Assembly: GCA_965203275.1 (NCBI GenBank)
Contig: OZ241865.1
Span: 256,001 to 320,000, forward strand
DNA length: 64,000 nt
Source of the DNA: Bdellovibrionales bacterium
GTDB lineage: Bacteria > Bdellovibrionota > Bdellovibrionia > Bdellovibrionales > JAUICD01
Direction: 5' to 3'
The notes under the pieces were generated by a model that did no database searches, was not told where the DNA came from, and worked only from the letters and a program-made list of their open reading frames with translations. Positions 7,953 to 63,932 of the stretch are shown piece after piece. Numbering within the stretch: the stretch's first letter is position 1; each line of letters starts with the position of its first letter. Made by a program: the position numbers and the translations under genes.

Positions 7953-8167
7953 AGTTTCACTAAAAGTAAACTAGCCTCTGGCTACTTTTGGACATTGCTC
8001 TGACAGCTATCGCTGTCCAAAAAGAGCAATGTCTCAAAAGTCCGTTTACTTTTAGTAGGGAGGATATCCTCGTCTCTTAACTACATGTTAAGGAAAAAGT
8101 TCCTTCTGTTTCACTAAAAGTAAACGGACTTTTGAGGTTGGCCAGCAGTGATGAAGGAACTTTTTCT
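7953..8167 (-). repeat. Family 1 structured repeat: one full copy (core 7959-8056) plus an inverted fragment
   Basis: 13-bp outer stem ACTAAAAGTAAAC/GTTTACTTTTAGT enclosing nested hairpins. Strand given is the inferred folded strand. Confidence 0.9.
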
Positions 8168-8569
8168 TTATTTTTTAACTAGTATTTTTATAATCTTATC
8201 TAGTCTATTTTCTACCCTATTAATATCACTTTTTAACTCTTCTTTTACTTTATTAATCTTGGTAGGAATATGGTTATTTACTTGTTCCTTAATAGGGTTT
8301 ATTTCTTTTTTAATAGGTCCTATCTCTTTTTTTATCGGGTCTACTGAAGAATGTATTATAACCCTTAAAACAATAATTGATAAAATGGCATTTATTATCT
8401 CTTTTGATGAATACAAATCTTGCAATCCAAAATAATTTACCACTATTAACAAAATAAACAAAACAAGGATAAAAAAACCTGTATATCCTTTTAGCAATGA
8501 TGAAAATATATCCAGTGGTGATGATTGATTATTTTCTGGCCCGTTGCCATTACCTGAATGATCATTCAT
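8168..8569 (-). CDS. TM plus coiled-coil protein (NH[IL] family)
   Basis: Two hydrophobic segments, heptads PIKKEIG/PIKKEIN, INPIKEQVNNHIPTKI, RLDKIIKIL; start follows GAGG. Confidence 0.75.
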   Translation of the reverse strand: MNDHSGNGNGPENNQSSPLDIFSSLLKGYTGFFILVLFILLIVVNYFGLQDLYSSKEIINAILSIIVLRVIIHSSVDPIKKEIGPIKKEINPIKEQVNNHIPTKINKVKEELKSDINRVENRLDKIIKILVKK

Positions 8570-8670
8570 AAAATCCTCTTTCAAAAGCTATATTCACAAA
8601 AAAAAGAGGCTATCAAGCCACTTTAAGCTTATGAATTTATCTACAATCTACGACCATAGAAATTAATATT

Positions 8671-8699
8671 AGAATATCAATCCTAAAGGATTTTGTCAA
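8671..8699 (-). promoter_or_regulatory. sigma70-type promoter
   Basis: Minus strand TTGACA-N17-TATTCT; the -35 context TTGACAAAATCC is identical to the promoter at 1456. Confidence 0.5.
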
Positions 8700-8883
8700 T
8701 ATGACGATAAGAGTCATATCAATTCTTCTTATCTCTAAAGATTGAATAGTTTAATTTTGTACTCAATTTATTATGTTATTCAGACCACTTATGAGGATAA
8801 GTGGTCTTTTTTAGCAACTTTACTAAACGTTGTCGAAATTTTGATGTTTTGAAGCTTAAAAATAGCCTTGAAACATTGAATAT

Positions 8884-9720
8884 TTCCTTAACATTTCACT
8901 CAAAATGAGCTGGCCTCTGGCCACTTTTAGGTTGCCAGCAGTGATGAAGGAACTTTTTCCTTAACATGTAGTAAAAAATGAAGGCTTCCTCCTTACTAAA
9001 AATAAACGGATTTTTGAGGCATTCAGCCTTTTATCGACGGCGAGAGCCGAGAGGTGTAAGAATGAACTTTTTCCTTAACATTATGTTAAAAAATGAGGAG
9101 ATCCTCCCTACTCAAAATGAGCAGTTTTTTGTGGCATTGCTCTTTTTAGACAGCGTAAGCTGTCAGAGCAATGCCCAAAAACACACCAGAGGTGTGGCTC
9201 ATTTTGAGTGAAACAAACGGCTGGTTTATTTTTAGTGAAACAAACGCGGTCATTGTCCAAAAGTGGCCAGAGGCCAGTTCACTTTGAGTGAGCCAACTTC
9301 TCCAGGCTCCCACTGCCCTCATCCTCCCCCTAATTATTTTTTGTTTGAGTTTACGCAGAATCTAAAAGAGAATAAAAAAAAACAAAAAAAGGAAATCTTT
9401 TTCCTTAACTTTTCACTCAAAATGAACTGGCCTCTGGCCACTTTTGGGTAGCCAGCCCGACGGCTCACGCCGTCGTAAAAGGCTGGCTACCTCAAAAGCT
9501 TGTTCATTTTGAGTAGAGGAGGATCCTTTTATTCCTTTACACCATGTTAAGGAAAACAGTTTGCGAATAAAACTCTTTTTCCTTAACATGGAGTAAAAAA
9601 ATGAGGAGATCCTCCCTACTAAAAGTAAACGGACTTTTGAGGCATTGCTCTTTTTAGACAGCGTATAGCTGTCAGAGCAATGTCCAAAAGTGACCAGAGG
9701 TCAGTTTACTTTTAGTGCAA
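8884..9720. repeat. Family 1 cluster: three full cores (9110-9209, 9415-9514, 9618-9716), one split copy and fragments in both orientations
   Basis: Same helix architecture with different, compensated stem sequences. Confidence 0.9.
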
Positions 9721-9724
9721 AAAA

Positions 9725-9871
9725 TCTGAAAGATTCTTGATTTGGTAAATGTACGAAATTAGATGATAATAGATTCAAGGAGGGGAAATTTTGAGGGAAA
9801 CAGTACACGTATCTCTGAAAAAGGTACGTACGGGTAGCCGAAAACACACGAAATTAGATAATGGAAGGCCC
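9725..9871 (+). repeat. Family 2 dispersed repeat (~147 bp)
   Basis: Aligns end to end with the reverse complement of 61189-61334 and 61436-61581. Confidence 0.85.
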
Positions 9872-9873
9872 AA

Positions 9874-11097
9874 ATGGTAATGTTTGAGTATAAAGGACTT
9901 ACTAAGCAAGGCAGGAACACTCATGGTACAGTGGAAGCTGACAGTATTCGGATGGCTCAGACCAAGCTGAAGCGAGATGGTATTTTTGTTGTAGATATCA
10001 AAAGTAAAAGAAAGGCTGCAGGTAAAAAATCTTCTAAAGTTCAAAGCCGGAAGGCTTCTACAGAAGATATGTCCTTAATGACTAGACAGTTAGCTACTCT
10101 TTTAAAAGCTGACATCCCTCTTGTTGAAACCTTAGGAGCTGTGAGTGAGCAAGTAGAAAATTCTGCACTTAGAGAAGCTCTTTCAGAGATAAGAAATCAA
10201 GTGACAGAGGGTCAAGCTTTGCATAAATCTCTAAAAAAATATCCTCACTTTTTTAATAAAATTTATGTTTCTATGTGTGAAGCTGGCGAAATGTCAGGTA
10301 CATTGGATATCATTTTATTACGTTTAGCAGAATTTGCCGAAGCAGAGGATCAGCTAAATAAAAAAATCAAATCGGCCATGCTTTATCCTATTATTATGTT
10401 GGTTTTTTCACTTATTGTCTTAGTTGTGCTTTTCATTTATGTGATTCCTAAGATCACAACAATTTTTGAACAATCACCAGACCTGACACTCCCTTGGTAT
10501 TCTGAAATGGTTATCAATTTTAGTGAGTTTTTAGTCAATTATTGGCTCATTGTATTTATAGGAGCTTTTGGAGCATATTCATTATTTCATCTTTGGAAAA
10601 AAACACCTACAGGTTCTGTCACTTGGGATAAAATCTTTCTTAAAATCCCTCTTGTAGGGCATTTAGCCCGCATGATTGCTGTCAGCCGTTTCACACGGAC
10701 TCTTTCAACTCTTTTAACTGGAGGTGTTCCTATGTTGCAGTCTTTAGATATCGTTAAAAATGTAGTGAATAACTCTGTTCTAGCAGAAGCCATTGAAAAT
10801 TCTAGGGATAATATCAGTGAAGGAGAATCCATTGCAGCTCCTTTAAAAAAATCAGAACAGTTTCCTCCTATTGTGATTCACATGATCAATATTGGTGAAA
10901 AAACAGGCGATCTTGAAAATATGCTCACACAGGTTTCAGATGCCTTTGATTTTCAAGTCAAAACTAAAGTGGAGGGATTGACAAGTTTACTTGAGCCAAT
11001 TTTTATTATATTCATAGGGCTTGTCATTGCAGTGATTGTGATGTCTATTATGGTCCCTATTTTTGAGTTATCCAATGTTGGTACTGGAACACCGTAA
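9874..11097 (+). CDS. gspF: Type II secretion inner-membrane platform protein F
   Basis: TRQLATLLKA, AGEMSGTLD, SAMLYP, SRFTRTLSTLL, GEKTGDLE, LLEPI. Confidence 0.88.
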   Translation: MVMFEYKGLTKQGRNTHGTVEADSIRMAQTKLKRDGIFVVDIKSKRKAAGKKSSKVQSRKASTEDMSLMTRQLATLLKADIPLVETLGAVSEQVENSALREALSEIRNQVTEGQALHKSLKKYPHFFNKIYVSMCEAGEMSGTLDIILLRLAEFAEAEDQLNKKIKSAMLYPIIMLVFSLIVLVVLFIYVIPKITTIFEQSPDLTLPWYSEMVINFSEFLVNYWLIVFIGAFGAYSLFHLWKKTPTGSVTWDKIFLKIPLVGHLARMIAVSRFTRTLSTLLTGGVPMLQSLDIVKNVVNNSVLAEAIENSRDNISEGESIAAPLKKSEQFPPIVIHMINIGEKTGDLENMLTQVSDAFDFQVKTKVEGLTSLLEPIFIIFIGLVIAVIVMSIMVPIFELSNVGTGTP

Positions 11098-11130
11098 ATC
11101 ATAGACCATAAACCATAGGCCATAGACCAT
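11098..11130. repeat. Short heptamer tandem (CCATAGA-like) between convergent genes
   Basis: atcatagaccataaaccataggccatagaccat. Confidence 0.6.
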
Positions 11131-11152
11131 TTTAAAAACACCTGCCAGGCGA

Positions 11153-12580
11153 TTAAGGATCTCTGCAAGGTCTATTGCTATTGTAACTGCTATAAAAGAG
11201 ATAATCATTCATTTGAATATGGTGTTCTTGATGATTGTTAGCTAAAATAATATCTCCTGATGATTTAATATATCCATGTGAAGAAAACCTATCTAAAATA
11301 ATCACAATGTCAGGATCACTATTGAGTACATCAAATGAAGTACTACCTAAATGCCTTCCACACAGAACCCAAGCTTTTTTACCGATAAATCTTTTTTTGT
11401 TGGCTTCTCTGTTGGCTCCGTTTAAAGACAAAATAAAAGGATTGCTTGCAGTGATTGTTTCTAGTTTGTCTTTGTCTATACTTTTAAAGCCATGCTCTGG
11501 TACATAAGTACCAGCCATACCAGGGGATATGATTCGGTAAGGTCGATTGTGTATAAATTGCCGACAGATCTCGCCTTCTTCATGTCGATAATAGCTATAA
11601 AAAACTTGTCCGTCGAATTGATTTTCTCTACTGGCCCAGCGGTTGCCAGCGATAATGACATCTCCTGCAGTTTTGACATAACCATGAGAAGAAAAATTAG
11701 ACAAAATCATTACAAGACGAGGGTCTGTATTGATAACATCGAATGAGTCATTGGCAAAGTGTTGCCCACACAAAATCCAAGCGGGTCTGCCAATAAGTTT
11801 CTCTCTATCTTCTTCTCTGAGAGATTGTACAAAAGGACTCCTTTCGGTTAAGACCATTGTTTGATATGGTCTCATACTATTTAATATAGTATAAAAATCA
11901 TTAAATACATAAATACCTCTCTCTGAGGTAATAACACTACCCTCCTGTCCTGTTGAAAGTGTACCTGTCATCCCTATAATTTCGTTTTGCAAATGAGTTT
12001 CTAAAATATCTGGATCTAAACCAGTAACACCTGTGAGATCAGTGTTGTAGAAATAGACTGAATAATCTACCTGAACAGGAGCTTTATTGATTCGACTGAT
12101 TCGACGGTTATTGATTCTATGGATTCGATCATCATAAAATTGAGCAATTTTAGATTCTATTTCATTTTGCTTATGAAAAATAGCTCCTGTAAAATTAGTA
12201 TTATTGAGCTTGGTTTCACCAAATCCATAAAAAGAACTCCAATTGGTTCCTGGGAGATAGCTATTTTGAAATTGAGCTTCTTCCAGGTCACAGCCTTGAA
12301 AATCACTCTGAGTCAAGATAACATTTTGAAGGTTAATACCCTTTAATCGTCTGTCCTGGCATTGCACTCTTTGTAAATTAATCACAATATCTGGATATTG
12401 TGATCTCAATGCATTAAATCTAGCAACATCTCCTCTTAAAAAAAGCGTCCTTAACTCTCGAGAAATATTTCGAAAAAAATGCGGTGATACTTCTTTAAAT
12501 AATTTTTCTGTTGCATCCCAATTCATATCCCCATAAACAGGCAAACTGATGACACATAAGATACAAAATAGCTTTTTCAT
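11153..12580 (-). CDS. Secreted protein with pentapeptide repeats and a duplicated C-terminal domain
   Basis: Signal peptide MKKLFCILC after GGGAG; pentapeptides LKGIN/LQNVI/LTQSD/FQGCD/LEEAQ; two copies of AW.LCG.H...SFDV.N.DP...FSSHGY.K..GD. Confidence 0.75.
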   Translation of the reverse strand: MKKLFCILCVISLPVYGDMNWDATEKLFKEVSPHFFRNISRELRTLFLRGDVARFNALRSQYPDIVINLQRVQCQDRRLKGINLQNVILTQSDFQGCDLEEAQFQNSYLPGTNWSSFYGFGETKLNNTNFTGAIFHKQNEIESKIAQFYDDRIHRINNRRISRINKAPVQVDYSVYFYNTDLTGVTGLDPDILETHLQNEIIGMTGTLSTGQEGSVITSERGIYVFNDFYTILNSMRPYQTMVLTERSPFVQSLREEDREKLIGRPAWILCGQHFANDSFDVINTDPRLVMILSNFSSHGYVKTAGDVIIAGNRWASRENQFDGQVFYSYYRHEEGEICRQFIHNRPYRIISPGMAGTYVPEHGFKSIDKDKLETITASNPFILSLNGANREANKKRFIGKKAWVLCGRHLGSTSFDVLNSDPDIVIILDRFSSHGYIKSSGDIILANNHQEHHIQMNDYLFYSSYNSNRPCRDP

Positions 12581-12815
12581 AAGAACTCCCATAAAAACTC
12601 CTGTACACTCCTTTACATAAACATAAAATACATAAAAAGTCTTTATAACAAGCCTTATAAATTCTGTCAAGTACCTTTTGTGTTATTTTTTCTTTTGATT
12701 TAAAGGGGAATATTAAAATACACAAGTGATTCTTATGGTTTATGGCTTTATTCTTTTTAAAATTCTTTTTAAAAATACTCCTCTGCCCACATCATGCCAA
12801 CTTTATTTTGCTAAG

Positions 12816-14171
12816 CTAAGTGGTTAGAGTCAGGCCTAATTCAAAAATATCACCTGCCCCTAAGGTCAACAAAATATCTCCTTCTGAGAGGGCATTTTTA
12901 ATTTCATGGGTTAGTTTTGGATTTTGTTTATTCCATAATCCCATATATTTTCTTTTACAAGTCAAAAGCATCTCTTCACAGAGCCTTAACGATGTAATAT
13001 TTTCAATAGGTTTTTCTCCTGCGGAATAAATATCAAAAATCATCAGCTCATCGACTCCTTCAAAGCAAGTTTTAAATTGTTCCCAGCATATTTGGGTTCT
13101 AGTAAATCTATGTGGCTGGAAGGCGACCACTAGACGTTTTTGGGGCCATTTTTCTTTGAATGTTTGAATTAAATATTTAATTTCTGTAGGGTGATGCCCA
13201 TAATCATCATAAATAGGAATATCTTGATAGTGTCCTTTAAATTGAAATCTTCTTTCTATGCCTACAAATTCATTGATAGCTTTGATCACATCCTTATTAT
13301 GAAGGCCACACTCAATACCTACAGCAATAGCACCGCAAGCATTTAAGGCGTTATGGTGACCAGGCAAACTTAAATGAAAGTTCCCTAGATTCTTCCCTTG
13401 AAAATAAACATCATAGCCATCAGAAACTTGTTTCATTTGGTAATCATTATGATCTTCAAAACCATACCTTCGTATTTTTTTAGGAAAATCTGCAAAAACT
13501 TTGCAGATCAAGGGATCATCTCCACACACCACAGCAAAACCATAGAAAGGTATTTTAAGAGCAAATTCTAAAAAAGTTTGTTGTAAGTGTTCAAAGTCTT
13601 GGTATTGATCTAGGTGATCATTATCTATATTGCTCACTAGAGCAATTTCAGGGGATAGTTTTAAAAAACTTCTATCACTTTCATCAGCTTCTGCAATCAA
13701 CCAATCCCCTTGACCTAACTTAGAGGTACTTTTGATTAAATTCAACCGTCCTCCGACGACAATGGTAGGGTCCTTGTGGGCTTGCAAAAAAATAGAAGCC
13801 AATAAACTTGTTGTAGTGGTTTTGCCATGACTTCCTCCCACAGCGATACCTCTTTTAAACCGCATGAGTTCAGCTAACATTTCTGCTCTTGGGATCAGTG
13901 GTATATTTTGCTTTCTAGCCCATTGCATTTCTGGATTATGGTTTGAGACACAACTAGAAAACACAACCACATCAGCTTGACCTACATGTTCTTTAGCATG
14001 TCCATAGAAAATAGGAATGCCTAATGTAGAAAGATCTTGGGTGTATGTACTCGACACAAGATCACTTCCAGTGACAGTAGCTCCCATATTGTGGAGTAGC
14101 TCAGCAAGACCGCTCATACCCACTCCGCCAATCCCTATAAAATGAAAACTTAAAGAATGAAATTCCATCAC
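12816..14171 (-). CDS. murC: UDP-N-acetylmuramate--L-alanine ligase
   Basis: HFIGIGGVGMSGLA, GSHGKTTTT, EADESD, DNDHLD, DDYGHHPTE, FQPHR, LGAGD. Confidence 0.96.
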   Translation of the reverse strand: MMEFHSLSFHFIGIGGVGMSGLAELLHNMGATVTGSDLVSSTYTQDLSTLGIPIFYGHAKEHVGQADVVVFSSCVSNHNPEMQWARKQNIPLIPRAEMLAELMRFKRGIAVGGSHGKTTTTSLLASIFLQAHKDPTIVVGGRLNLIKSTSKLGQGDWLIAEADESDRSFLKLSPEIALVSNIDNDHLDQYQDFEHLQQTFLEFALKIPFYGFAVVCGDDPLICKVFADFPKKIRRYGFEDHNDYQMKQVSDGYDVYFQGKNLGNFHLSLPGHHNALNACGAIAVGIECGLHNKDVIKAINEFVGIERRFQFKGHYQDIPIYDDYGHHPTEIKYLIQTFKEKWPQKRLVVAFQPHRFTRTQICWEQFKTCFEGVDELMIFDIYSAGEKPIENITSLRLCEEMLLTCKRKYMGLWNKQNPKLTHEIKNALSEGDILLTLGAGDIFELGLTLTT

Positions 14172-14225
14172 ATAGTACTCTGCCTTAAAAATACATTTAT
14201 TTCAAGAGGATATTCTAAATGTGAT

Positions 14226-16471: not shown

Positions 16472-16560
16472 TTTTATACCTTTAAAAATCTTAATAATAT
16501 TTTCAATTTAAAAAGACTCTTATTTAAAAAGCTTTTTAAAAGTGCTATCTTATAAATTCT

Positions 16561-16588
16561 TTGTCGGCAAAAACATCAAATAAATTTA
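16561..16588 (-). promoter_or_regulatory. sigma28-like promoter
   Basis: Minus strand TAAA-N16-GCCGACAA. Confidence 0.4.
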
Positions 16589-16845: not shown

Positions 16846-18321
16846 ATGCCACGTATCACAAGTTTTGAAAATATAAGAGCAAATTCCCATATTCACCTAA
16901 TGGGCATCTGTGGTACAGCTATGGCTAGCTTAGCAGGCTTACTCCAACAAAAAGGTTTTCAGGTCACTGGAAGCGATCAAAATATTTATCCGCCTATGTC
17001 GACACAACTTCAAAAATTAAATATTCCTATCGTCGAACAATTACAAAACCTAAAATCACTACCAGATATCGTTATTGTGGGCAATGTTATGACACGAAAA
17101 CATGCAGAAGTGGAATTTTTACTTAACTCGCGAATTCCATACACTAGCCTACCAGAAATGATAGGTCAGTTGCTTATCGATCAGAAAAAAAGCATTGTAC
17201 CTTGTGGCACTCACGGCAAGACAACTTGTACAGCTCTTTTAAGCTGGATTCTTAAAGCTTGCGATAAAGATCCAGGCTTTTTGATTGGAGGGATTCCTCA
17301 AAACTTTGAATTTTCTTTTCATTCATCTTCTGAAGATATTTTTGTGATTGAAGGCGACGAATATGATACAGCGTTTTTTGATAAAGTCCCTAAGTTCACT
17401 CATTATAAACCTCAATATGTGATCCTGACATCCATTGAAATGGACCACATAGATATTTACCCTGATTTCAATGCAGTTAAGGTAGCCTTTCAACAACTGC
17501 TCAGAATAATCCCAACAAAAGGTCTTCTTGTAGCTAACGGGGAAGATCCTGTTGTGTGTGACATGCTTAAAATGGCACAATGCCCTTATTTTCTTTATGC
17601 TCTCTGTCGTGAAAAATCTTATAAGCCACCACATTATTGGGTAGAAAATATCCAAAAGCAAAAAGAAGGCATTAGCTTTGAGGTGCTATCTTCTGATAGC
17701 AGTAAAAATATAACCCTTGAGCTTTCTCTTTTTGGTCATCACAATATAGCAAATGCCCTCGCTGTGTATGCCCTTATTGCAGAAATGCCTTTTGCCCTTT
17801 CAAAAAAGGCTATTCAAAAAGCCTTTAAAACTTTTTTAGGTGTTAAAAGAAGGCAAGAAATTATTGGAAGAGCTGGAGGTATTGTGGTGATAGATGATTT
17901 TGCCCACCACCCCACGGCTGTTAAACAAACCATACAGTCTGTTCAAGAACATTTTAAAGGGGAGAAGGTGATTTCTATTTTTGAACCTCGATCAGCAACA
18001 TCTCGTAGGGCTATTTTCCAACAAGAGTATGTCGATGCTTTTGTAGATGCTCAGTTTGTGATCCTATCTGATGTCTATAAAAAAGACATGCTAGCTTTAG
18101 ATGAAAGACTAAATATTGAAAAACTTGTTTTAGATATTCGAAATAAACAAACAAATAGGCAGAAGGTATTTGCAACAAAAAGTATAGAAGATATTATTCG
18201 TTTAACTCGTCAAAATGTATGTAAAGGAGATGTTGTTTTAATTATGAGCAATGGAGGGTTTCAAGGGTTTCATTCAAAGCTATTATCTGCTTTAAAAAAC
18301 AAGTATTATAAACAAAATTAA
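16846..18321 (+). CDS. mpl: Murein peptide ligase
   Basis: HLMGICGTAMASLA, YPPMS, GTHGKTT, EGDEYDTAFFDK, DDFAHHPTAV, FEPRS, MSNGGF. Confidence 0.93.
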   Translation: MPRITSFENIRANSHIHLMGICGTAMASLAGLLQQKGFQVTGSDQNIYPPMSTQLQKLNIPIVEQLQNLKSLPDIVIVGNVMTRKHAEVEFLLNSRIPYTSLPEMIGQLLIDQKKSIVPCGTHGKTTCTALLSWILKACDKDPGFLIGGIPQNFEFSFHSSSEDIFVIEGDEYDTAFFDKVPKFTHYKPQYVILTSIEMDHIDIYPDFNAVKVAFQQLLRIIPTKGLLVANGEDPVVCDMLKMAQCPYFLYALCREKSYKPPHYWVENIQKQKEGISFEVLSSDSSKNITLELSLFGHHNIANALAVYALIAEMPFALSKKAIQKAFKTFLGVKRRQEIIGRAGGIVVIDDFAHHPTAVKQTIQSVQEHFKGEKVISIFEPRSATSRRAIFQQEYVDAFVDAQFVILSDVYKKDMLALDERLNIEKLVLDIRNKQTNRQKVFATKSIEDIIRLTRQNVCKGDVVLIMSNGGFQGFHSKLLSALKNKYYKQN

Positions 18322-18997
18322 TTATTTTTTGTTTGAGATTTATGCAGAATCTAAAAAGAATAAAAAAAACAAAAAAATACAAACATTTTGTTTATCCGGG
18401 ATCTGGGAACTGAGAGATGGGAACCGGCAACCCGGGATCTGGTTTTAAAGCATTGATTGTAATGAATTTTTGCATCTAAAAAATTTCCTCCTGAGCCCTT
18501 GGCGGGTTTAAAAAGGACTTTTTCCTTAACATGGAGTAAAAAAATGAGGAGATCCTTTCTACTCAAAGTGAACAGGCTTTTGAGGCGATGACCATTTTGT
18601 CAACGGCGAAAGCCGTTGCGGTCATCGTCCAAAAGTGACCAGAGGTCAGTTCACTTTGAGTGAAACAAAGGCATGATGCATTTTGAGTGAAAATGACGGC
18701 TAGACCACTTTTAGTGAAACAAAACAAGCTGATAAATTAGGAGCTTTTTTATATAAACTGTGTAAAAATACTTAAAGTTAAAATTGATCTTTTCCGGAAT
18801 CCGGGATCCGGGATCTGGGATCCGGCAAGCGGGCAACCCGGCAACAAAAGGAACTTTTTCCTTAACATCGTGTTAAGAAACGAAGAGATCCTCTCTACTC
18901 AAAATGAGCAGTTTTTTGCGGCATTGCTCTTTTTAGACAGCGTAAGCTGTCAGAGCAATGCCCAAAAACACACCAGAGGTGTGGCTCATTTTGAGTG
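18319..18997 (+). repeat. Repeat cluster: A-rich module, heptamer blocks, two full Family 1 cores (18561-18661, 18897-18996) and stacked end fragments
   Basis: The core at 18897 matches the core at 9110; 18319-18378 matches 9331-9390. Confidence 0.9.
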
Positions 18998-24621: not shown

Positions 24622-24639
24622 AAAACCTTCGTACGTTTT

Positions 24640-25490
24640 TTTCCCTAAAATTGAACTAGCCTCTGGCTACTTTTGGGCAGTTAGCCCGACGGCTCACGCC
24701 GTCGATCAAAGGCTAACTGCCTCAAAAGCTTGTTCAATTTTAGGAAGGAGGATCTCTCCGTCTCTTAACACCATGTTAAGGGTTTGTTTCACTAAAAGTA
24801 AACTAGCCTCTGGCTACTTTTGGATAGCCAGCCCGACGGCTTTCGCCGTCGATCAAAGGCTGGCTACCTCAAAAGTCCGTTTACTTTTAGTAGGGAGGAT
24901 CTCTTCGTCTCTTAACACCATGTTAAGGGTTTGTTTCACTAAAAGTAAACTAGCCTCTGGCTACTTTTGGATAGCCAGCCCGACGGCTCACGCCGTCGAT
25001 CAAAGGCTGGCTACCTCAAAAGTCCGTTTACTTTTAGTAAGGAGGATCTCTTCGTTCCTTAACACCATGTTAAGGGTTTGTTTCACTAAAAGTAAACTAG
25101 CCTCTGGCTACTTTTGGATAGCCAGCCCGACGGCTTTCGCCGTCGATCAAAGGCTGGCTACCTCAAAAGTCCGTTTACTTTTAGTAGGGAGGATCTCTTC
25201 GTCTCTTAACACCATGTTAAGGGTTTGTTTCACTAAAAGTAAACTAGCCTCTGGCTACTTTTGGATAGCCAGCCCGACGGCTTTCGCCGTCGATCAAAGG
25301 CTGGCTACCTCAAAAGTCCGTTTACTTTTAGTAGGGAGGATCTCTTCGTCTCTTAACACCATGTTAAGGAAAAAGTTCCTTTCTTACATCTGTTGCCTGC
25401 AAAGGCTTACGCCTTTGCGGTCATTGCCCAAAAGTAGCCAGAGGCTAGACCACTTTTAGTGAAACAGAGGCTGGTTTATTTTTAGTGCAA
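24640..25490 (-). repeat. Family 1 tandem array of 5 x 147 bp followed by two inverted end fragments
   Basis: Cores start at 24644, 24791, 24938, 25085 and 25232. Confidence 0.95.
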
Positions 25491-25614
25491 ATCAACAAAA
25501 GTCTAAAGTATAATAAAAGTCAAAAGAAAAATAAATCGTAGTATCTCTCACAAAAATATATACAATAAATATACAGATAAAGAAATATTTAGACAATAAA
25601 ATAATAGGTTTCTA

Positions 25615-45618: not shown

Positions 45619-45640
45619 AATAATGCTCCTTTCATTTCAT

Positions 45641-46955
45641 TCTCACTAAAAATAAACCAGCCTCTGGCTGTTTTTGGGCAATCAGCCCGACGGCTTATCG
45701 CCGTCGATCAAAGGCTGATTGCCTCAAAAATCCGTTTATTTTTAGTAGGGAGGATCCCCTCATTTCTTTACACCATGTTAAGGAAACAAGATATTCGCTT
45801 CATCCCTTCTGTCTGCCAGATCCCGGAAGAATATCCTTTTGTTTTTTAACACAGTGTTAGAAATCAAATTTTATTTTCACTAAAAGTAAACTGACCTCTG
45901 GTCACTTTTGGACATTGCTCTGACAGCTTACGCTGTCTAAAAAGAGCAATGTCTCAAAAGTCCGTTTACTTTTAGTAGGGAGGATCTCCTCATTTCTTTA
46001 CACCATGTTAAGGAAACAAGATATTCGCTTCATCCCTGCCTGTCTGCCAGATCCCGGAAGAAGATCCTTTTGTTTTTTAACACAGTGTTAGAAATCAAAT
46101 TTTATTTTCACTAAAAGTAAACTGACCTCTGGTCACTTTTGGACATTGCTCTGACAGCTTACGCTGTCTAAAAAGAGCAATGTCTCAAAAGTCCGTTTAC
46201 TTTTAGTAGGGAGGATCTCCTCATTTCTTTACACCATGTTAAGGAAACAAGATATTCGCTTCATCCCTGCCTGTCTGCCAGATCCCGGAAGAAGATCCTT
46301 TTGTTTTTTAACACAGTGTTAGAAATCAAACTTTAAGCCTTCCATTATGATCATTAATGCACTTTTTATAGGCTTAATTTAAAATTTTCAATAAGTCACT
46401 TTATTTTTCAATGTAAACCAGCCTCTGGCTGTTTTTGGGCAATCAGCCCGACGGCTCTCGCCGTCGATCAAAGGCTGATTGCCTCAAAAATCCGTTTATT
46501 TTTAGTAGGGAGGATATCCTTATTTCTTTACATCATGTTAAGGAAACAAGCTATTCACTATATTCACTCCCGGGATCTGATGCCTGACTGCCAGATCCCA
46601 GAAGAAGATCCTTTTGTTTTTTAACACAATGTTAGAAATCAAATTTTATTTTCACTAAAAGTAAACTGACCTGGTCACTTTTGGACATTGCTCTGACAGC
46701 TTACGCTGTCTAAAAAGAGCAATGTCTCAAAAGTCCGTTTACTTTTAGTAGGGAGGATCTCCTCATTTCTTTACACCATGTTAAGGAAACAAGATATTCG
46801 CTTCATCCCTGCCTGTCTGCCAGATCCCGGAAGAAGATCCTTTTGTTTTTTAACACAGTGTTAGAAATCAAACTTTAAGCCTTCCATTATGATCATTAAT
46901 GCACTTTTTATAGGCTTAATTTAAAATTTTCAATAAGTCACTTTATTTTTATGTA
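45641..46955 (-). repeat. Family 1 higher-order array of five cores with ~90-bp linkers (A-B-B-tail-A'-B-tail)
   Basis: Cores at 45645, 45879, 46110, 46414 (clipped) and 46654; tail 46331-46410 is repeated at 46873-46950. Confidence 0.92.
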
Positions 46956-54742: not shown

Positions 54743-54840
54743 CCTTATAAATCTTAATGATCATTATTATTACTTTTTTATTCTTCTATTATAAATAAAA
54801 TTACCAACAAAAGACAATATTGAAAAATATTGAATATATT

Positions 54841-55887: not shown

Positions 55888-56138
55888 ATTATTATCTTCT
55901 TATTTTTTGGTTTTGATATATTTTTAAAGTGTTTAAACTGCAATGTAAATTCTAAAACTAAAAGGTATTTCTTAAGACAATCAATATTTAATTATGCTTC
56001 TTCATCCTGATCATAGCTATCATAGACTGAAAGCATTTATATATTATTTTATGAAGAGGATTTTTTCAACTTCTTTCCTGGAAATTTCTTAAAACTTAAA
56101 TTGTTTATATTATTGTGGGGATCACATCTCAACACACT

Positions 56139-57062: not shown

Positions 57063-57177
57063 AAAACTCCTAGAAGTCCTCTCAAAAATAAATTATACAA
57101 CACTTATTTGCTAATTGAATGCTCTTTTTATGATCTCTTAGGCTGTCAGACAGTCTGGTAACCTCCATATCTGATGG

Positions 57178-57747
57178 CTATTCTTCAAAAGACAGAATAA
57201 CACTTTTGCCATTTCTGAAATTGCGAACCCAAGAGATAATTTGACGATTTTGATTTATATTAAAAACATCACTTTCAACCTTTTGACTCAAGTGGTATTT
57301 GATGAGCATGCCATCAGGTGTTTGGTCTAGAGAAGAGCCACAAGCTTGTCTTCTAGCTAGGGCAGATAGCTCCATAACAGCAGCTCTTAAAGCTGTTTGC
57401 TCTCTTTGAGGATTAATATCTGGATAGCGTACAAAACCTTTGTTATTAGCATGTGGATGTTCTGGTAAGTAACGATTAATGTATTTAGCTTCTTTGGCAA
57501 TATAGCAATTTTTACGGTGACATCTTAATATAAGGGCTTGATAAGGTTCTCCAGAAGGTGTTTTTGTCACACGAAAATGGCGTAAGTTAGAACCATGTAC
57601 ACTCACCCTTAAAAAAGATTTTTTAAGATCTCTGCAAGCTATATCTGTTACATTTGATAGAGGAGTCCTCCTATCTATTGCAGCCATAGCTGGATGGGTC
57701 AACCCTATAATTAAAAAGATATAAATAAGTTTCCGATATGTTACCAT
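57178..57747 (-). CDS. Secreted protein with a FlgC-like segment
   Basis: Signal peptide (AMA-A); TPSGEPYQ and YLPEHPHANNKGFVRYPDIN resemble the flagellar rod protein FlgC. Confidence 0.55.
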   Translation of the reverse strand: MVTYRKLIYIFLIIGLTHPAMAAIDRRTPLSNVTDIACRDLKKSFLRVSVHGSNLRHFRVTKTPSGEPYQALILRCHRKNCYIAKEAKYINRYLPEHPHANNKGFVRYPDINPQREQTALRAAVMELSALARRQACGSSLDQTPDGMLIKYHLSQKVESDVFNINQNRQIISWVRNFRNGKSVILSFEE

Positions 57748-57810
57748 TGTGATTATGCCTTTGAATATAAAATATCAAATATGCAACAAAGTGACAAGTA
57801 GGCAATGGTT

Positions 57811-59103
57811 TTAATTTATTTTTTTAGGGGTTTGTAAAATTTGGTGAGCTGTTAAATAATTATAAGCTGTCAAAACATCAAAATCCGTATCTAAAAGCTT
57901 CTTTTTGTGTTCATTATTTGTTGTTTTTGTAAATTCATTACTTTCTTCTTCTTTTTTTAAAGCACCTTTTATGTCGCTTTCTCTCTTGATTTTACGTTGC
58001 ACAAGAGCTTTTTTATAGGCCGTTAAATTGACATGATCAATTTTAATATTAGGCATAATACCTTTTGCTTGAATAGCTTGTCCATTGGGAGTATAATAAC
58101 GTGCCACTGTCATTTTAAGAGCAGAACCATCATCAAATTTGACCAAAGATTGAATAGAACCCTTGCCAAAGCTTCTACGCCCCATAACAAGAGCTCTGTT
58201 ATGATCTTGCAGTGCTCCTGCAAGAATTTCACTAGCACTTGCTGAATATTCATTGATCAAAATAATCACTGGAAAATCTTTAGTAAGAGTATCTTCATTG
58301 TGAGCATAAATAATATTATTTTTACTTTTATCTTTACCTTTAGTAGAGACAATAACACCCTTCTCAATAAATAAATCAGTGATCTTAATAGCCTGATCTA
58401 AAAGCCCTCCGGGGTTATTTCTTAAATCTAAAATCAACCCTTTTAAACCTTCTTGATTCTTGTGTCTCATTAATAACTCTTTAAAGTCGTCGTATGTTTT
58501 TTTAATAAAGCTTGTCATTCGGAAGTAGGCATAGCCTGACTCTAAGTTAATATATTTTACAGAACGTACTTTGACTTGGCCTCTTTCTATTTCAAAAAAT
58601 TTAGGTTCTTTTTCATCTGGGCGTACAATTTTCAATCTCACTTTTGTACCTAGAGGACCTCTTAGCCTTTGTCCAATTTCAGAAAGGGTCAGGCCCTTTA
58701 TAGATTGATCGTCAATAGCTACAATTTGATCTCCTGCTTGAATACCAGCTTTCCATGCTTGAGAATCTTCTATAGGAGAGATAATAGTTAAAACACTATT
58801 TTTTAAAGTGATTTCTATACCAATGCCTCCAAATTCTCCTAATGTCGTAGATTGAAAAGATTTATACATATCTGCTGAAAGGAAGTGGGTATGAGGATCT
58901 AACTCTGCTAACATGCCTTTAATAGCTCCGTGAATCAAGTTTTCAGTATTGACCTCTTCTACGTAGTATTGTTGTAGAATGTGTAGAGCTTTAGTAAATA
59001 CAGAGAGTAATATGTAATTGTTTTTTGTAGCTTTTACTCCAAATGATATGGATAAAATAAAAACAGTACAAATCAAAGCAATGGTTATTTGTTTTTTGCT
59101 CAT
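57811..59103 (-). CDS. ctpA: S41 C-terminal processing peptidase
   Basis: LDPHT, FGGIGI PDZ, LDLRNNPGGLL, SASASEI, FGKGSIQ, YYTPNG. Confidence 0.92.
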   Translation of the reverse strand: MSKKQITIALICTVFILSISFGVKATKNNYILLSVFTKALHILQQYYVEEVNTENLIHGAIKGMLAELDPHTHFLSADMYKSFQSTTLGEFGGIGIEITLKNSVLTIISPIEDSQAWKAGIQAGDQIVAIDDQSIKGLTLSEIGQRLRGPLGTKVRLKIVRPDEKEPKFFEIERGQVKVRSVKYINLESGYAYFRMTSFIKKTYDDFKELLMRHKNQEGLKGLILDLRNNPGGLLDQAIKITDLFIEKGVIVSTKGKDKSKNNIIYAHNEDTLTKDFPVIILINEYSASASEILAGALQDHNRALVMGRRSFGKGSIQSLVKFDDGSALKMTVARYYTPNGQAIQAKGIMPNIKIDHVNLTAYKKALVQRKIKRESDIKGALKKEEESNEFTKTTNNEHKKKLLDTDFDVLTAYNYLTAHQILQTPKKIN

Positions 59104-59180
59104 CTATTGAATCCTTTTATTCTTTTATTGTATCGAATATTAGAAGGGGACGACTAGAATAGGATAAGTCTAGTTTTTCT

Positions 59181-59770
59181 TTTCACTAAAAGTGGGCTGT
59201 TTCCCTAAAATTGAACTAGCCTCTGGCTACTTTTGGGCAGTTAGCCCGACGGCTACCGCCGTCGATCAAAGGCTAACTGCCTCAAAAGCCTGTTCAATTT
59301 TAGGAAGGAGGATCTCTTCGTTTCTTAACACCATGTTAAGGAAACAAAATGCCTTTTCTGCTTGATGCCCTCAAAAGCCTGTTCAATTTTAGGAAGGAGG
59401 ATCTCTTCGTTTCTTAACACTATGTTAAGGAAACAAAATGCCTTTTCTGCTTGATGCCCTCAAAAGCCTGTTCAATTTTAGGAAGGAGGATCTCTTCGTT
59501 TCTTAACACTATGTTAAGGAAACAAAATGCCTTTTCTGCTTGATGCCCTCAAAAGCCTGTTCAATTTTAGGAAGGAGGATCTCTTCGTTTTTTGACCACA
59601 TGTTAAGGAAACAAAATATTCATTTCACCCCGGGATCCGGCAAACAGGCATCCGGACCCCGGGATATGATCCCGGATCCTGGATAAACATCATGTTAAAG
59701 AAACAAAGTGTTCGCTTTATCCCTGCCTGTCTGCTTGATGCTGGGTTGCCGGATTGCCGGGTCCCAAATC
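59181..59770 (-). repeat. Family 1: end stub, full core (59204-59303), 89-bp half-unit tandem and heptamer block
   Basis: CTCAAAAGCC recurs at 59281, 59370, 59459 and 59548. Confidence 0.92.
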
Positions 59771-60249
59771 ATGGAGAAAAACCATTATATTAAAAACTAA
59801 TGTTCAATTCTGACCCATTAGCAAAATTTTATATCTCTACCACCCTGATGGGTCTCTAACGTGAAAAATAATTTTCCCCTAAAATGTTGCATATTAATGA
59901 AACATAATACGTAATCCACTCATTTGATCTAAAAAATATAAGTAATTTCAAATACTTAATACTGTAACTTTTATACAAAAGTCACAGTCACAATATGTTT
60001 TTAGCTTAAAATATGTAGTGTCTTGATAAAAACTTATACTTTTATAGCTTTACCCTTTCTTTTTTAAGATGAAAGGGGTTGTTTGGAGGATAAGGTCTTT
60101 TTTATGACCTCTATGCCTCTTTATAACTCTCTTTAAAAATTATAAAAGTCAATTTTTCAAAGCCATTAATACTCATATTATTTGCATTATAAAATATATA
60201 ATTGCATAATAAAAAACAATATATTGCATAATACAATATCATTTCACTA

Positions 60250-60281
60250 GAAGTGACCAGAGGTCAGACCACTTTTAGGAA
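60250..60281 (+). repeat. Family 1 end fragment overlapping the tadA stop codon
   Basis: AAGTGACCAGAGGTCAGACCACTTTTAG matches the end of the 63788 copy (reverse complement). Confidence 0.8.
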
Positions 60282-60733
60282 AAAGAAGATCGAATTTCTT
60301 GAAAGAAATTTTTTAATATAAGGCTACATTCTTTTTCTAAGATACCACTGACTACTTCTGGTCTATGATTAAGTCTTTGATCATTTAAAACTTGATAAAG
60401 GGAAAAAACAGCCCCTGTTTTAGGATCCAATGCTCCTATCACTACTTTTGAGATACGTGATTGCAAAATAGCTCCTCCACACATCAAGCAAGGCTCTAAT
60501 GAGACAAAAAGTGTGCATCCTGATAACCGCCAAGTTGCCAGTTTTTGTGCAGCCTTTTGAATGGCTAAAATTTCAGCATGTCCTGTAGGTTGATGGCTAC
60601 TTTCTTTTTGATTAAAGGCCCTAGCTAAAATTTCATCATCTTTTGTAATAATAGCCCCTACAGGGACTTCCTTAAGATCAAAAGCTTTTTGAGCTTCTAA
60701 CAAGGCTAATTTCATACCTTCTTCATTTTTCAC
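60275..60733 (-). CDS. tadA: tRNA adenosine(34) deaminase
   Basis: EVPVGA, HAEI, LEPCLMCGGA, DPKTGA, LNH, FF. Confidence 0.93.
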   Translation of the reverse strand: MKNEEGMKLALLEAQKAFDLKEVPVGAIITKDDEILARAFNQKESSHQPTGHAEILAIQKAAQKLATWRLSGCTLFVSLEPCLMCGGAILQSRISKVVIGALDPKTGAVFSLYQVLNDQRLNHRPEVVSGILEKECSLILKNFFQEIRSSFS

Positions 60734-60903
60734 ATCTCACCCTTTTTTATAAAGAAGTTTCAAGTCCAAAGTTTTATATAATAAAATATTTATATTTTAA
60801 GGCACTTGAAAGCATAAGTGAATATTCTTTTAACCATATAAGAATCTAGGGGTGTCTTATGGGAAATAATATTTTATAAACTTAAAATCATAAGGAGAAA
60901 ATA

Positions 60904-61188
60904 ATGAACTTACAAAAACCACAACAAGTCAATCATCTACAAGAAAGCCATTTACCAAAAACATCTATAGATGAATCTTATTTTACAATGCATGTCCATG
61001 CTGAGCATGTTCATGCTAAGCATGTTCGTGCTGAGTCTATTTATACTCAACAGTTTGTTTGTGAGCAATGTGGACAAAAAAACTCTTTTATTTATAAGGT
61101 TAATAGCTCCTACAGTCAAATTCAAGAACAAACTCACTGCAAAAGCTGTCATTTTAAAAGCCATTTTAAAAAGTTTATTTTGCAATAA
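60904..61188 (+). CDS. Small putative zinc-binding protein with a His-rich repeat
   Basis: AAGGAG RBS, HVHAE-HVHAK-HVRAE, CEQC...CKSC. Confidence 0.6.
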   Translation: MNLQKPQQVNHLQESHLPKTSIDESYFTMHVHAEHVHAKHVRAESIYTQQFVCEQCGQKNSFIYKVNSSYSQIQEQTHCKSCHFKSHFKKFILQ

Positions 61189-61770
61189 GGACCTTCTATT
61201 GTCTAATTTCGTGTGTTTTTGTCTATCCGTACGTACCTCCTTCAGAGATACGTGAACTATTTCCCTCAAAATTTCCCTTCCTTGAATCTATTATTTCTAA
61301 TTTCGTACATCCACCAGATCAAGCTTCTTTCAGAGAATAGGAAGGTCAATTTTGAGGTGATCGGCTAGAATCTCATTGCATAACATCCTATATCCATACT
61401 CTTTGTTGTACATATTATTCTCAACCCTTCATTAAGGGCCTTCTATTGTCTAATTTCGTGTGTTTTTGTCTATCCGTACGTACCTCCTTCAGAGATACGT
61501 GAACTATTTCCCTCAAAATTTCCCTTCCTTGAATCTATTATTTCTAATTTCGTACATCCACCAGATCAAGCTTCTTTCAGAGAATAGGAAGGTCAATTTT
61601 GAGGTGATCGGCTAGAATCTCATTGCATAACATCCTATATCTATACTCTTTGTTGTACATATTATTCTCAATCCTTCATTAAGGGCCTTCTATTGTCTAA
61701 TTTTGTTAATTTTTTTTCTAACTTCGATGATTTTTGTCTACCCGTACGAACCTTTTTTAGAAATACGTGC
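61189..61770 (-). repeat. 247-bp tandem duplication containing Family 2 repeats, plus a diverged partial third copy
   Basis: CCTTCTATTGTCTAATTT at 61192, 61439 and 61686. Confidence 0.92.
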
Positions 61771-61774
61771 GTTG

Positions 61775-61860
61775 GTTCACTAAAAGTAAACTGACCTCTG
61801 GTCACTTTTGGGTTGCCAGTTCCCAGATCCCGGATCCCAGATCCCGGATCCTGGATAAAC
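61775..61860 (-). repeat. Family 1 end fragment fused to a heptamer block
   Basis: TTCACTAAAAGTAAACTGACCTCTGGTCACTTTTGG followed by GTTGCCAG and (GATCCCR)n. Confidence 0.85.
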
Positions 61861-61880
61861 ACATACTTTTTGATACAAGA

Positions 61881-63587
61881 TTATTTTTTTAAGATAATCA
61901 AAGTTTGGTTTTTTTCTAAAATAGCTTTTTCTACTTCTTTTGTCGATAATGTGTAGTTTTTATACCCTGCCATTTTTAAGGTAATGGGTTTGTTCTTTAA
62001 AAATGTGATTTGTCTAGGAGTTCTTTTGTAAGACCAAACACCATCTATAAAAATTTTAGCTCCTTCTGGAGTGCTTGAGATAAATAAAGTAATGGAAGGC
62101 ACAGGTGTTTTTGCTGTCTGAGATGCCATCTCTTTATTCTTAGGACTTAACATATCTTTAAGTGTTTTAAACATGGAAGTTGTATTTTCTGTCCACTTTG
62201 TTATTTCTTTTTCTGTCTCTTCCGGATGTGTGATCTTAAAATAAAGCAATGAAGAAATACCTGTTGAAAAAATTAAAAATAAACCTATTTGCAAGACAAG
62301 AGAGAAATCTATTCTTTGGATTTTTTTATGATAAGGTTCGTAGTTTGTCTTAATATAATGCTTCTTTCTTGCATAATTTTCTGACTTTTGATGATGATTA
62401 TTATTAGATGAAGCAGAAGGTATTGTTTTAAAATGAATAGACTTAGATGCTTCTGATGCTGTGTTTTGATCAAATAAAACTCTAGAAACTGCTAGATTAC
62501 GTTCTTGATCTGATTCTGCTAGAAAACTATTATTAACAGTAATGGTTTCTGTTTTTTCTTCAACTTCAATGTTCTTTTCTAACAAAGCTTTTTGTATGAT
62601 CTCATCAATTTCCTTAAAGTCGCTTGTATAAGCCTTTTTAATTTTATCACCTAATTGCACCGGACTAAAGTCAGGATCCCACGAACATTTTTTAAGCAGT
62701 TGAGAAAGTTCTTCATGGAGTTCTTTTGCTGAAAATCTTAAGTTTTTATCTCTTACAAGAGCTTTTTTAACAATTTTTTCTACTTCTTTGACATGTTGCT
62801 GTGGAATATTTAATTTTGATTTGGATTCATTATTCATTTGTTCTAATGAAGGAATATGAGCCTCTTTTACTTTTAAAAGAATCTTATTGGCATTTTTAGC
62901 ATAAAATAAACGATCCTTAGCAAGAATTTCCCAAAGTACAACACCTAAAGAAAAAACATCTGTCTTTTGATCTATCTCAAATCCTTCAGCTTGTTCTGGA
63001 CTCATATAATTAAATTTACCTTGCAGTGTGTTCGCTCGCATATTGGCTGGTTGAAATGGATTATTAGAACGTGTTTTGGATATGCCAAAATCAATTAATT
63101 TCACCTCTCCTTCCACATTGATCATCACATTTTGAGGACTAATATCACTGTGTACAATGTTGAGTTTTTCATTTGTTTTAGGATGAATAAATGTGTGTGC
63201 ATAATACAAACCAGATGCCATTTCTTTAGTAATATAAATTTTCTCTGCAAATGTGAGGTCAGTTTTTTTGGAATAAAAGTCTTTTAAAATTTGTCTTAAA
63301 TTTTTCCCTTTAATAAATTCAAGGGCTAAAAATAAATGCTTTTGTTTTTTTTTATTTCTATGAGCAGGATACACAATAGCAATGTTTTTATGCTTCATAT
63401 ACTTTACAATATCTTGCTCAGCTTCAAACATTTTAGCAAAATCTATGTTAGAAGAATAAGCATCCGATATAGTTTTAATAGCCAGAATCTCATTATCGGA
63501 GGATTTAGCCAGATAAATCTCTGCCATGCCCCCCTTACCAATCTGGTGTAACAAAGTATATCTATCAAATTTTTTGTTGACTTCCAT
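61881..63587 (-). CDS. Membrane Ser/Thr protein kinase with a C-terminal PEGA domain
   Basis: IGKGGMAEIY, AIK, HSDISPQN, DFG, YMSPEQ, DVFSLG, TM helix, STPEGAKIFIDG. Confidence 0.92.
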   Translation of the reverse strand: MEVNKKFDRYTLLHQIGKGGMAEIYLAKSSDNEILAIKTISDAYSSNIDFAKMFEAEQDIVKYMKHKNIAIVYPAHRNKKKQKHLFLALEFIKGKNLRQILKDFYSKKTDLTFAEKIYITKEMASGLYYAHTFIHPKTNEKLNIVHSDISPQNVMINVEGEVKLIDFGISKTRSNNPFQPANMRANTLQGKFNYMSPEQAEGFEIDQKTDVFSLGVVLWEILAKDRLFYAKNANKILLKVKEAHIPSLEQMNNESKSKLNIPQQHVKEVEKIVKKALVRDKNLRFSAKELHEELSQLLKKCSWDPDFSPVQLGDKIKKAYTSDFKEIDEIIQKALLEKNIEVEEKTETITVNNSFLAESDQERNLAVSRVLFDQNTASEASKSIHFKTIPSASSNNNHHQKSENYARKKHYIKTNYEPYHKKIQRIDFSLVLQIGLFLIFSTGISSLLYFKITHPEETEKEITKWTENTTSMFKTLKDMLSPKNKEMASQTAKTPVPSITLFISSTPEGAKIFIDGVWSYKRTPRQITFLKNKPITLKMAGYKNYTLSTKEVEKAILEKNQTLIILKK

Positions 63588-63639
63588 ATATTTATAAACA
63601 CTCCATGCCTATTGAGTATATTTCTTCTTTTCCTTAATT

Positions 63640-63666
63640 CCATCGGATAAAAGAGCTAAAATCTTA
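63640..63666 (-). promoter_or_regulatory. sigma28-like promoter
   Basis: Minus strand TAAG-N15-TCCGATGG upstream of the kinase. Confidence 0.35.
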
Positions 63667-63699
63667 AGTCAGATAAGGTCTAGCTTTTATTTCACTCCT

Positions 63700-63932
63700 T
63701 TGTTTCACTAAAAGTAAACCAACCTCTGGTTGCTTTTGGACAGTTAGCCCGACGGCTCTCGCCGTCGATCAAAGGCTGAGTTGTTTCACTAAAAGTGGTC
63801 TGACCTCTGGTCACTTTCTGGCGATGACCACGATGGCTTTCGCCATCGGTAAAATGGTCATCGCCTAGAAAGCCTGACCACTTTTACTAGAAAGGATCTC
63901 TTCGTTTCTTAACACCATGTTAAGGAAACAAG
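63700..63932 (-). repeat. Family 1: truncated copy (63708-63778) joined to a full copy (core 63788-63888)
   Basis: Same architecture; stem variants GGTC/GACC and CTTTCT/AGAAAG. Confidence 0.9.

What the first reader, a model, noticed from the sequence alone, without database searches (positions are those of the whole stretch)
7953..63932. Undescribed-looking structured repeat element with compensatory covariation in every helix (Family 1)
About 18 full cores keep one fold. The elements are a 13-bp P1, a side hairpin P2 with invariant CCTCTGG, a 6-bp P3a, a 1-nt bulge, a 10-11-bp P3b, a 5-7-nt bulge, a 6-7-bp apical P4 and a 3-nt linker. Two small external hairpins follow (GAGGATCTC-like and TTAACA-NNN-TGTTAA). 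P1 pairs seen: ACTAAAAGTAAAC/GTTTACTTTTAGT, CCTAAAATTGAAC/GTTCAATTTTAGG, ACTAAAAATAAAC/GTTTATTTTTAGT, ACTCAAAATGAAC/GTTCATTTTGAGT, ACTCAAAATGAGC/GCTCATTTTGAGT, ACTCAAAGTGAAC/GTTCACTTTGAGT and TAAAAGTGGTC/GACCACTTTTA. P2 arms are TAGCC, TGACC, CAGCC, TGGCC, CAACC and CACACC, each with its complement. P3a is CTTTTG/CAAAAG, TTTTTG/CAAAAA or CTTTCT/AGAAAG. P3b and P4 take several unrelated paired sequences. Shape is conserved and sequence is not, unlike ordinary REP or MITE copies. Inference: a non-autonomous mobile structured RNA or ssDNA recognised by shape. No cognate enzyme is in the window.
Basis: partly seen in the sequence, partly recalled or inferred. Interest (0 to 1): 0.92.

Follow-up and report, generated by a model that had tools for sequence, protein, structure and literature searches.

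The report
Three-armed selfish single-stranded DNA repeat
A 160-base non-coding DNA unit that folds into a three-armed hairpin has been copied hundreds of times between the genes of one small group of Bdellovibrio-like bacteria; it keeps its shape while its letters change, appears to work as single-stranded DNA, and spreads without any recognisable copying enzyme.

Summary
Real. The window holds 18 cores; the closed 2.57-Mb chromosome holds about 680 (6.8% of its DNA), all intergenic and on either strand. Every core helix covaries, also in a tree-aware test (65-94% of possible co-changes at paired columns, 13-23% between helices). The apical loop on that strand is GCGNNAGC in 511 of 612 cores, a DNA mini-hairpin motif, which favours ssDNA over RNA. 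Filled/empty comparisons show mobility with no target duplication and 0-79 bases of target lost; older copies are a favoured target. The family seems confined to one genus: its apparent presence in a second genus is on misbinned contigs. No Y1 HUH/RAYT, RT, IS110 or TnpB gene was found in the chromosome, and the four-helix-bundle and Rpn links are weak. No Rfam match. Verdict: an unusually elaborate new variant of non-autonomous structured repeats (REPIN/bcr1-like); mover unknown. The scan noted this family before in other windows of this genome.

The parts
7951..8107 (-). full element (strand = folding strand F); followed by an opposite-orientation fragment to 8157
   Evidence: CM 155 bits; coverage segments
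8893..9049 (.). element fragments of both orientations
9059..9217 (+). full element, followed by stacked 3'-end fragments to 9298
   Evidence: CM 151 bits
9407..9566 (-). full element, 5' end facing the 5' end of 9567-9724 (inverted pair)
   Evidence: CM 159 bits
9567..9724 (+). full element
   Evidence: CM 150 bits
18426..18791 (+). remnant of a four-helix-bundle (PF05635) cassette: leader (18426-18515) and gene end (18720-18791), the middle replaced by element DNA
   Evidence: blastn against an intact cassette; PF05635
18510..18669 (+). full element, with stacked 3'-end fragments to 18721
   Evidence: CM 171 bits
18846..19004 (+). full element
   Evidence: CM 144 bits
23208..23394 (.). two 5'-end (TTTCCTTAACA) fragments around a heptamer array
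24636..25383 (-). tandem array of five full elements, period 147
   Evidence: (D3)
25391..25491 (+). 3' fragments in the opposite orientation
45637..45797 (-). full element
   Evidence: CM 166 bits
45871..46027 (-). full element (231-nt tandem unit)
   Evidence: CM 158 bits; (D5)
46102..46258 (-). full element (231-nt tandem unit)
   Evidence: CM 158 bits
46398..46557 (-). element with a damaged P1 arm
   Evidence: CM 143 bits
46646..46800 (-). element with the P2 loop deleted
   Evidence: CM 148 bits
59196..59355 (-). full element, followed by three 89-nt tandem 5'-part fragments to 59623
   Evidence: CM 174 bits; (D8)
60244..60283 (+). orphan 3'-end fragment (P2 plus P1 arm)
61771..61819 (-). 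3'-end fragment joined to a heptamer array
63699..63939 (-). full element (63780-63939) whose 3' end is joined into an older copy (fragment 63699-63779)
   Evidence: CM 165 bits

Best explanation
A non-autonomous selfish repeat that moves through a single-stranded DNA intermediate. Copies are gained and lost; insertion makes no target duplication, removes 0-79 target bases and carries 0-25 variable bases beyond the end motifs; older copies are a favoured target, above all their P2 loop. Helix alleles are shuffled as paired modules. INFERRED: strand F is released as ssDNA and folds; a trans-acting nicking/strand-transfer protein reads the fold plus the fixed loop and end bases; the 3' end is joined to a target strand (HUH-like chemistry is the nearest model) and the other end is resolved imprecisely by repair or recombination with neighbouring copies, which gives deletions, stacked fragments and tandem arrays; only copies that keep the fold are copied again. 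The enzyme is of an unrecognised family, lies off the chromosome, or has been lost.
For: Not a cis RNA: lone copies between co-directional genes lie 43 with and 40 against the genes. Selection on fold: paired columns co-change in 65-94% of possible tree steps vs 24-43% off-register and 13-23% between helices; the two P1 arms mismatch by allele in 10 of 563 copies while 31 of 63 P1 x P4 combinations occur at least twice. Mobility: 10 independent paralogous filled/empty pairs; orthologous sites differ between G001 and its sister contigs. Self-targeting: of 1502 3' ends, 635 run into same-orientation and 153 into opposite-orientation element DNA, with peaks at the P2 loop (106) and at the opposite end motif (93). 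REP-type HUH enzymes cut ssDNA at sites on either side of the hairpin and transfer strands (PMC8266576, passages).
Against: No Y1 HUH/RAYT in G000 (G002 RAYT-like and G001 TnpA-like proteins give no tblastn hit), although the chromosome looks closed (ends join inside one ORF) and near-identical tandem copies imply recent activity. In relatives the loop stays G-N-N-A (32 of 35 parsed from 65) but closes with T-A in 17 of 32, weakening the mini-hairpin argument. Junction bases are less fixed than known HUH cut sites. G.T tolerance fits RNA equally. No intermediate was observed; no RNA data were available.
Confidence: 0.5

Rival explanations
1. The element is an RNA (strand F) copied back into the genome by a reverse transcriptase supplied in trans, SINE-like, with template jumps making chimeras.
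For: G.U-compatible strand bias; GNRA loops in 353 of 612; imprecise ends with extra bases and truncated fragments; G001 has three RT matches.
Against: No RT in G000; GNYA loops in 201 of 612; no target duplication; junctions inside coding paralogs are about 15 sense to 12 antisense after collapsing copies by hand (43:16 by copy), so no mRNA polarity; two of G001's three RT loci have no element within about 1.5 kb.
Confidence: 0.18
2. No dedicated enzyme: host replication and repair (template switching at stalled forks, microhomology joining, gene conversion) spread the hairpins, and arm-to-arm copying makes the compensatory changes.
For: No mobiliser found; small deletions and short homologies at junctions; tandem arrays; other structured repeat families co-occur.
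Against: Bulges, linker lengths, the P2 loop and both end motifs are fixed, which arm copying would erase; strand asymmetry; the 3' junction sits within a few bases of one end.
Confidence: 0.14
3. A resident gene family moves it: the expanded Rpn-type PD-(D/E)XK nucleases (PF12784) or machinery tied to the four-helix-bundle/heptamer cassettes (PF05635).
For: PF12784 matches: G000 14, G001 5, G004 1, G002 and G003 0; 33 and 35 of 44 ORFs of that cluster have element marks within 300 nt up- and downstream; all 11 four-helix-bundle ORFs clustered have a mark downstream; the 5' end motif also heads 146 heptamer arrays.
Against: Many of these ORFs are fragments broken by the element and co-duplicated; in G001 only the 2 interrupted Rpn loci of 5 carry a copy; PF05635 is in 58 of 151 order genomes against 3 with the element, and G004's sampled own-contig cassettes have none.
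Confidence: 0.1
4. A host-selected functional element (small RNA, terminator or nucleoid protein site).
For: Strong structural conservation across two species.
Against: Positions not conserved between sister genomes; breaks genes; no orientation bias; nests in itself.
Confidence: 0.04
5. It exploits the host Xer tyrosine recombinase through a dif-like end, as ssDNA phages do.
Against: The inner, best-conserved arm bases are missing in the element; no such site was found in G001 outside element tails and one coding match; imprecise junctions do not fit conservative recombination; the site was picked after the fact from 28 matches.
Confidence: 0.04

Closest known systems
REP / BIME / REPIN elements moved by RAYT (TnpA-REP, Y1 HUH); PMC3116915, PMC8266576, PMC3733652 (passages read)
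   Same: Hundreds of extragenic copies; inverted pairs and tandem arrays; hairpin kept by compensatory change; strand-specific ssDNA logic.
   Different: 160-nt branched unit instead of a 20-40-nt palindrome; no unpaired GTAG/CGTC tag on the folding strand; single units common; no RAYT in the genome.
bcr1 of the Bacillus cereus group (as reviewed in PMC3184786, passages read)
   Same: Lineage-restricted mobile repeat with a branched fold kept by compensatory changes.
   Different: bcr1 has 5-bp direct repeats and is transcribed; this has no target duplication, loses target DNA and self-inserts.
MITEs (RUP, NEMIS, Nezha; PMC3184786, passages read)
   Same: Short, non-coding, stable fold, weakly inverted end motifs.
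   Different: No target duplication; ends imprecise; no transposase with matching ends found.
attC sites and the DUF1874 motif (PMC5737381, passages read)
   Same: Structure kept with little sequence conservation, bulged bases, possible ssDNA function; that paper calls branched ssDNA rare.
   Different: No ORF-cassette layout, both orientations, no integron integrase.
Small dispersed repeats (SDR) of Nostoc (recalled; paper not obtained)
   Same: Shared fold across sequence families; nested self-insertion; association with heptamer arrays.
   Different: 21-27 nt versus 160 nt; no three-way junction.

Membership tests
REP / REPIN with RAYT | Many extragenic copies | tested here: met
   676 cores; none of 622 inside an ORF of 250 aa or more
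REP / REPIN with RAYT | 20-40-nt simple palindrome | tested here: not met
   160-nt three-way junction
REP / REPIN with RAYT | Unpaired GTAG/GGAG or CGTC tag at the foot of the stem | tested here: not met
   GTAG in 435 of 590, but on the non-folding strand, 3' of the stem and half inside P1
REP / REPIN with RAYT | Inverted doublet as the unit | tested here: inconclusive
   Two-core clusters: 35 with 5' ends inward, 3 outward, 72 direct; 142 of 324 clusters are single
REP / REPIN with RAYT | RAYT gene flanked by copies | tested here: not met
   No PF01797 in G000; G001's single match has no copy nearby
MITE | Terminal inverted repeats | tested here: inconclusive
   End motifs match at a median 7-8 of 11 bases; the 5' junction lies up to 25 nt outside the motif
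MITE | Target-site duplication | tested here: not met
   9 of 10 pairs lose 2-79 nt; the tenth abuts without duplication by eye, although the aligner over-extended it
MITE | Transposase with the same ends | tested here: not met
   Ends of the two multi-copy IS types examined are unrelated
IS200/IS605 end derivative | TnpA or TnpB in the genome; precise ends at a fixed tetranucleotide | tested here: not met
   No TnpA; the only PF07282 match is in a 1365-codon frame beside cas1/cas2-like ORFs; ends vary
IS91 / Y2 rolling-circle | Y2 transposase | tested here: inconclusive
   0 of 5 genomes, but no control genome rang
IS110/IS1111 bridge or seek RNA | DEDD recombinase | tested here: not met
   Absent from G000 and G001
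Retron / group II / DGR RNA | Linked RT gene | tested here: not met
   No PF00078 in G000
Integron attC | One site per ORF cassette, one orientation, IntI | tested here: not met
   Both orientations and ORF-less arrays; two tyrosine recombinases in G000, a XerD-like one and a 187-aa one
bcr1 | 5-bp direct repeats | tested here: not met
bcr1 | Transcribed | not testable with these tools
   No RNA holder listed
Any Rfam 15 family | Score above gathering threshold | tested here: not met
   0 in the window; only generic hairpins at half the threshold or little more in 7900-9800

The most novel reading that the evidence does not exclude
A new class of ssDNA mobile element: a branched DNA fold with a mini-hairpin cap and a fixed 3' end is recognised by a mobiliser of no described transposase family (possibly a host or Rpn-type nuclease), inserts without target duplication, targets its own loop, and shares its end stem with a second, differently folded repeat family in the same genome, so one unknown enzyme serves several shapes.
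Probability: 0.25. Interest if true: 0.85.

Novelty: new variant of a known kind. Interest (0 to 1): 0.6.

Why it matters
How REP-like repeats spread is known only for RAYT systems. Here a repeat fills 6.8% of a small closed chromosome with no RAYT, RT, IS110 or TnpB gene found, and its 350-odd natural variants already map which bases and pairs matter and which strand folds. That makes a pull-down for an unknown ssDNA-processing enzyme directly testable. Branched functional ssDNA is described as rare (PMC5737381).

Tried and rejected
Second genus: G004 matches lie on contigs C1, C4 and C11; C11's uL2 is 96% and C1's RecG 94% identical to G001 while G004 holds second copies like G003's, and C4 is 88-90% identical to G001 DNA, so these are misbinned. 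Co-polarity with coding strands, seen in the four-helix-bundle cassette, did not generalise. No GxxExxY nuclease, no stand-alone GIY-YIG, one DUF559 match in a 124-codon frame, not beside a copy; an HUH-motif scan of 90-520-aa ORFs gave 17 candidates, none transposase-like by eye. Sequencing runs: no RNA holder listed; contigs of 4 runs break at the repeats and show no empty site. Promoter scan at 59000-60400 at chance level. No replichore bias evident. R-scape was not available; one search is a parsimony substitute, and its P1 and P4 values are inflated by the parser's pairing filter (P2, P3a, P3b are not). Literature searches found no description of this family (listings only); supplements, such as the motif tables of PMC5737381, were not read.
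Full report
OBSERVATION. The window is G000:256001-320000 of a 2.57-Mb single-contig genome, 35% GC, whose ends join inside one reading frame, so it looks closed. Genome-wide there are 634 cores by a P2-anchored parser (360 distinct) and 676 by an unanchored one; element DNA covers 6.8% of the genome and 6.0% of the window. None of 622 parsed cores lies inside an ORF of 250 aa or more, and orientation is unrelated to flanking genes. Rfam gives nothing at gathering thresholds and only generic hairpins below them.

COVARIATION. 28 of 40 core pairs show two-sided changes, covariation term -8.9 kcal/mol; shuffled and slid controls fall far below. Each helix has a few discrete alleles. Paired arms are almost perfectly associated (Cramer V 0.98 for P1 and P3a, 0.84 for P3b), whereas different helices are looser (0.4-0.8), even though the P1 arms are the most distant parts. 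On trees built without the tested helix (120 of 291 G000 arm sets plus 43 from relatives), paired columns share 65% (P1), 83% (P2), 75% (P3a), 77% (P3b) and 94% (P4) of possible changes, against 24-43% off-register and 13-23% between helices (P1 and P4 are biased upward by the parser).

WHICH STRAND, DNA OR RNA. Neutral decay in duplex DNA would give equal numbers, so the reverse strand F is the one that folds or is exposed. Propagated new transitions on F are C>T 14 and A>G 3, with no G>A or T>C. On F the apical octamer is GCGNNAGC in 511 of 612 cores, the DNA mini-hairpin motif reported to be much more stable as DNA and found at ssDNA phage origins (PMC13037366, abstract and passages); a third of the loops break the RNA GNRA rule. 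Against: in relatives about half of the G-N-N-A loops close with T-A. ssDNA is therefore favoured, not shown.

MOBILITY. Thirteen cores have a paralogous empty site, 10 independent: nine lose 2-79 target bases and one abuts cleanly; none duplicates the target; 3-25 bases up to the start of the 5' motif and 0-10 after P1 are extra. Orthologous intergenic sites differ between G001 and sister contigs about 90% identical to it. Of 1502 3' ends, 788 run into other element DNA, peaking at the P2 loop and at the opposite end motif, which explains stacked fragments and copies bounded by inverted end motifs. A second family (22 matches; window 61183-61676) has the same 3' leader and outer stem but a different interior.

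DISTRIBUTION. G001 (same genus) has 236 pattern matches, with new paired alleles. G004's matches are on misbinned contigs. The model was positive in 3 of 151 order genomes and 1 of 151 phylum genomes, with limited sensitivity. A record titled Bdellovibrionales carries the pattern. One laid run labelled sponge metagenome holds short, diverged pieces of the window.

THE MOVER. Not found in G000: Y1 HUH/RAYT, RT, IS110, TnpB, GxxExxY, stand-alone GIY-YIG; Y2 is inconclusive. An earlier scan note pointed to four-helix-bundle genes: 14 matches here, 5 cut short by the element, but the family is in 58 of 151 order genomes, so it is a target and neighbour rather than a proven partner. Rpn-type PF12784 genes track copy number (14, 5, 1, 0, 0) and are often flanked, but largely because they are broken and co-duplicated. 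A dif-like resemblance of one end motif was not confirmed in G001. The labels IS256-like, IS1634-like, serine recombinase and Rpn/YhgA for clusters are recalled from sequence features, except PF12784.

COMPARISON. It works most like REPIN/BIME elements (PMC3116915, PMC8266576, PMC3733652; passages) and looks most like bcr1 (PMC3184786; passages), but fails defining tests of each, and of MITEs, attC, IS200/IS605 ends and retrons. Seven literature searches found no description (listings only; supplements unseen). Other windows of this genome led earlier readers of the scan to the same family. New here: the strand, the DNA-type loop rule, the tree-aware test, the junction anatomy, the misbinning and the shared end stem.

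VERDICT. A real, recently active, genus-restricted selfish repeat with an elaborate selected fold; most likely ssDNA-mobilised (0.5); enzyme unknown. New variant of a known kind; interest 0.6.

Noticed in passing
window 61183-61676, 9758-9870; 22 matches genome-wide: A second repeat family of about 250 nt whose core starts GTTTC-CCTCAAAAT and closes with the complementary stem, the same end as the main family, around a different fold.
   Followed up: partly
G000:C1:254074 and 58 other matches; remnants at window 9300-9400 and 18320-18380: A third family: a long nested hairpin with at least two paired allele sets, usually abutting the main element's 5' end motif and itself a target of insertion.
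   Followed up: partly
G000 PF05635 genes, e.g. C1:472382; remnant at window 18426-18791: 101-aa four-helix-bundle genes between same-direction heptamer arrays; an inverted repeat covers the ribosome-binding site, with a similar layout in G001 and one G004 copy.
   Followed up: partly
G000:C1:2068418-2068445: Single intergenic dif-like 28-mer; G000 and G001 have only one full-length Xer-like gene, and G003/G004 no PF00589 match.
   Followed up: partly
G004 contigs C1, C4, C11: Misbinned from an organism close to G001 (duplicate uL2 and RecG).
   Followed up: yes
G000 genome-wide: A 66-member cluster of Rpn/YhgA-like ORFs (label recalled), many broken by the element; large paralog families of secreted and coiled-coil proteins.
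   Followed up: partly
G001, e.g. L118 and L111-L113 region: A 14-nt unit inserted in tandem into the P2 loop of many copies, growing a small side array.
   Followed up: no
G000:C1:238802-244554 and 369692-374191: Two CRISPR-Cas loci: a 1325-aa Cas12-like ORF with cas1/cas2-like ORFs, and an array with cas-like ORFs; an element copy follows the Cas12-like gene.
   Followed up: no
G000:C1:432252: A 411-aa IS with 8-bp target duplication has inserted into an element's apical loop, so it is younger than that copy.
   Followed up: no
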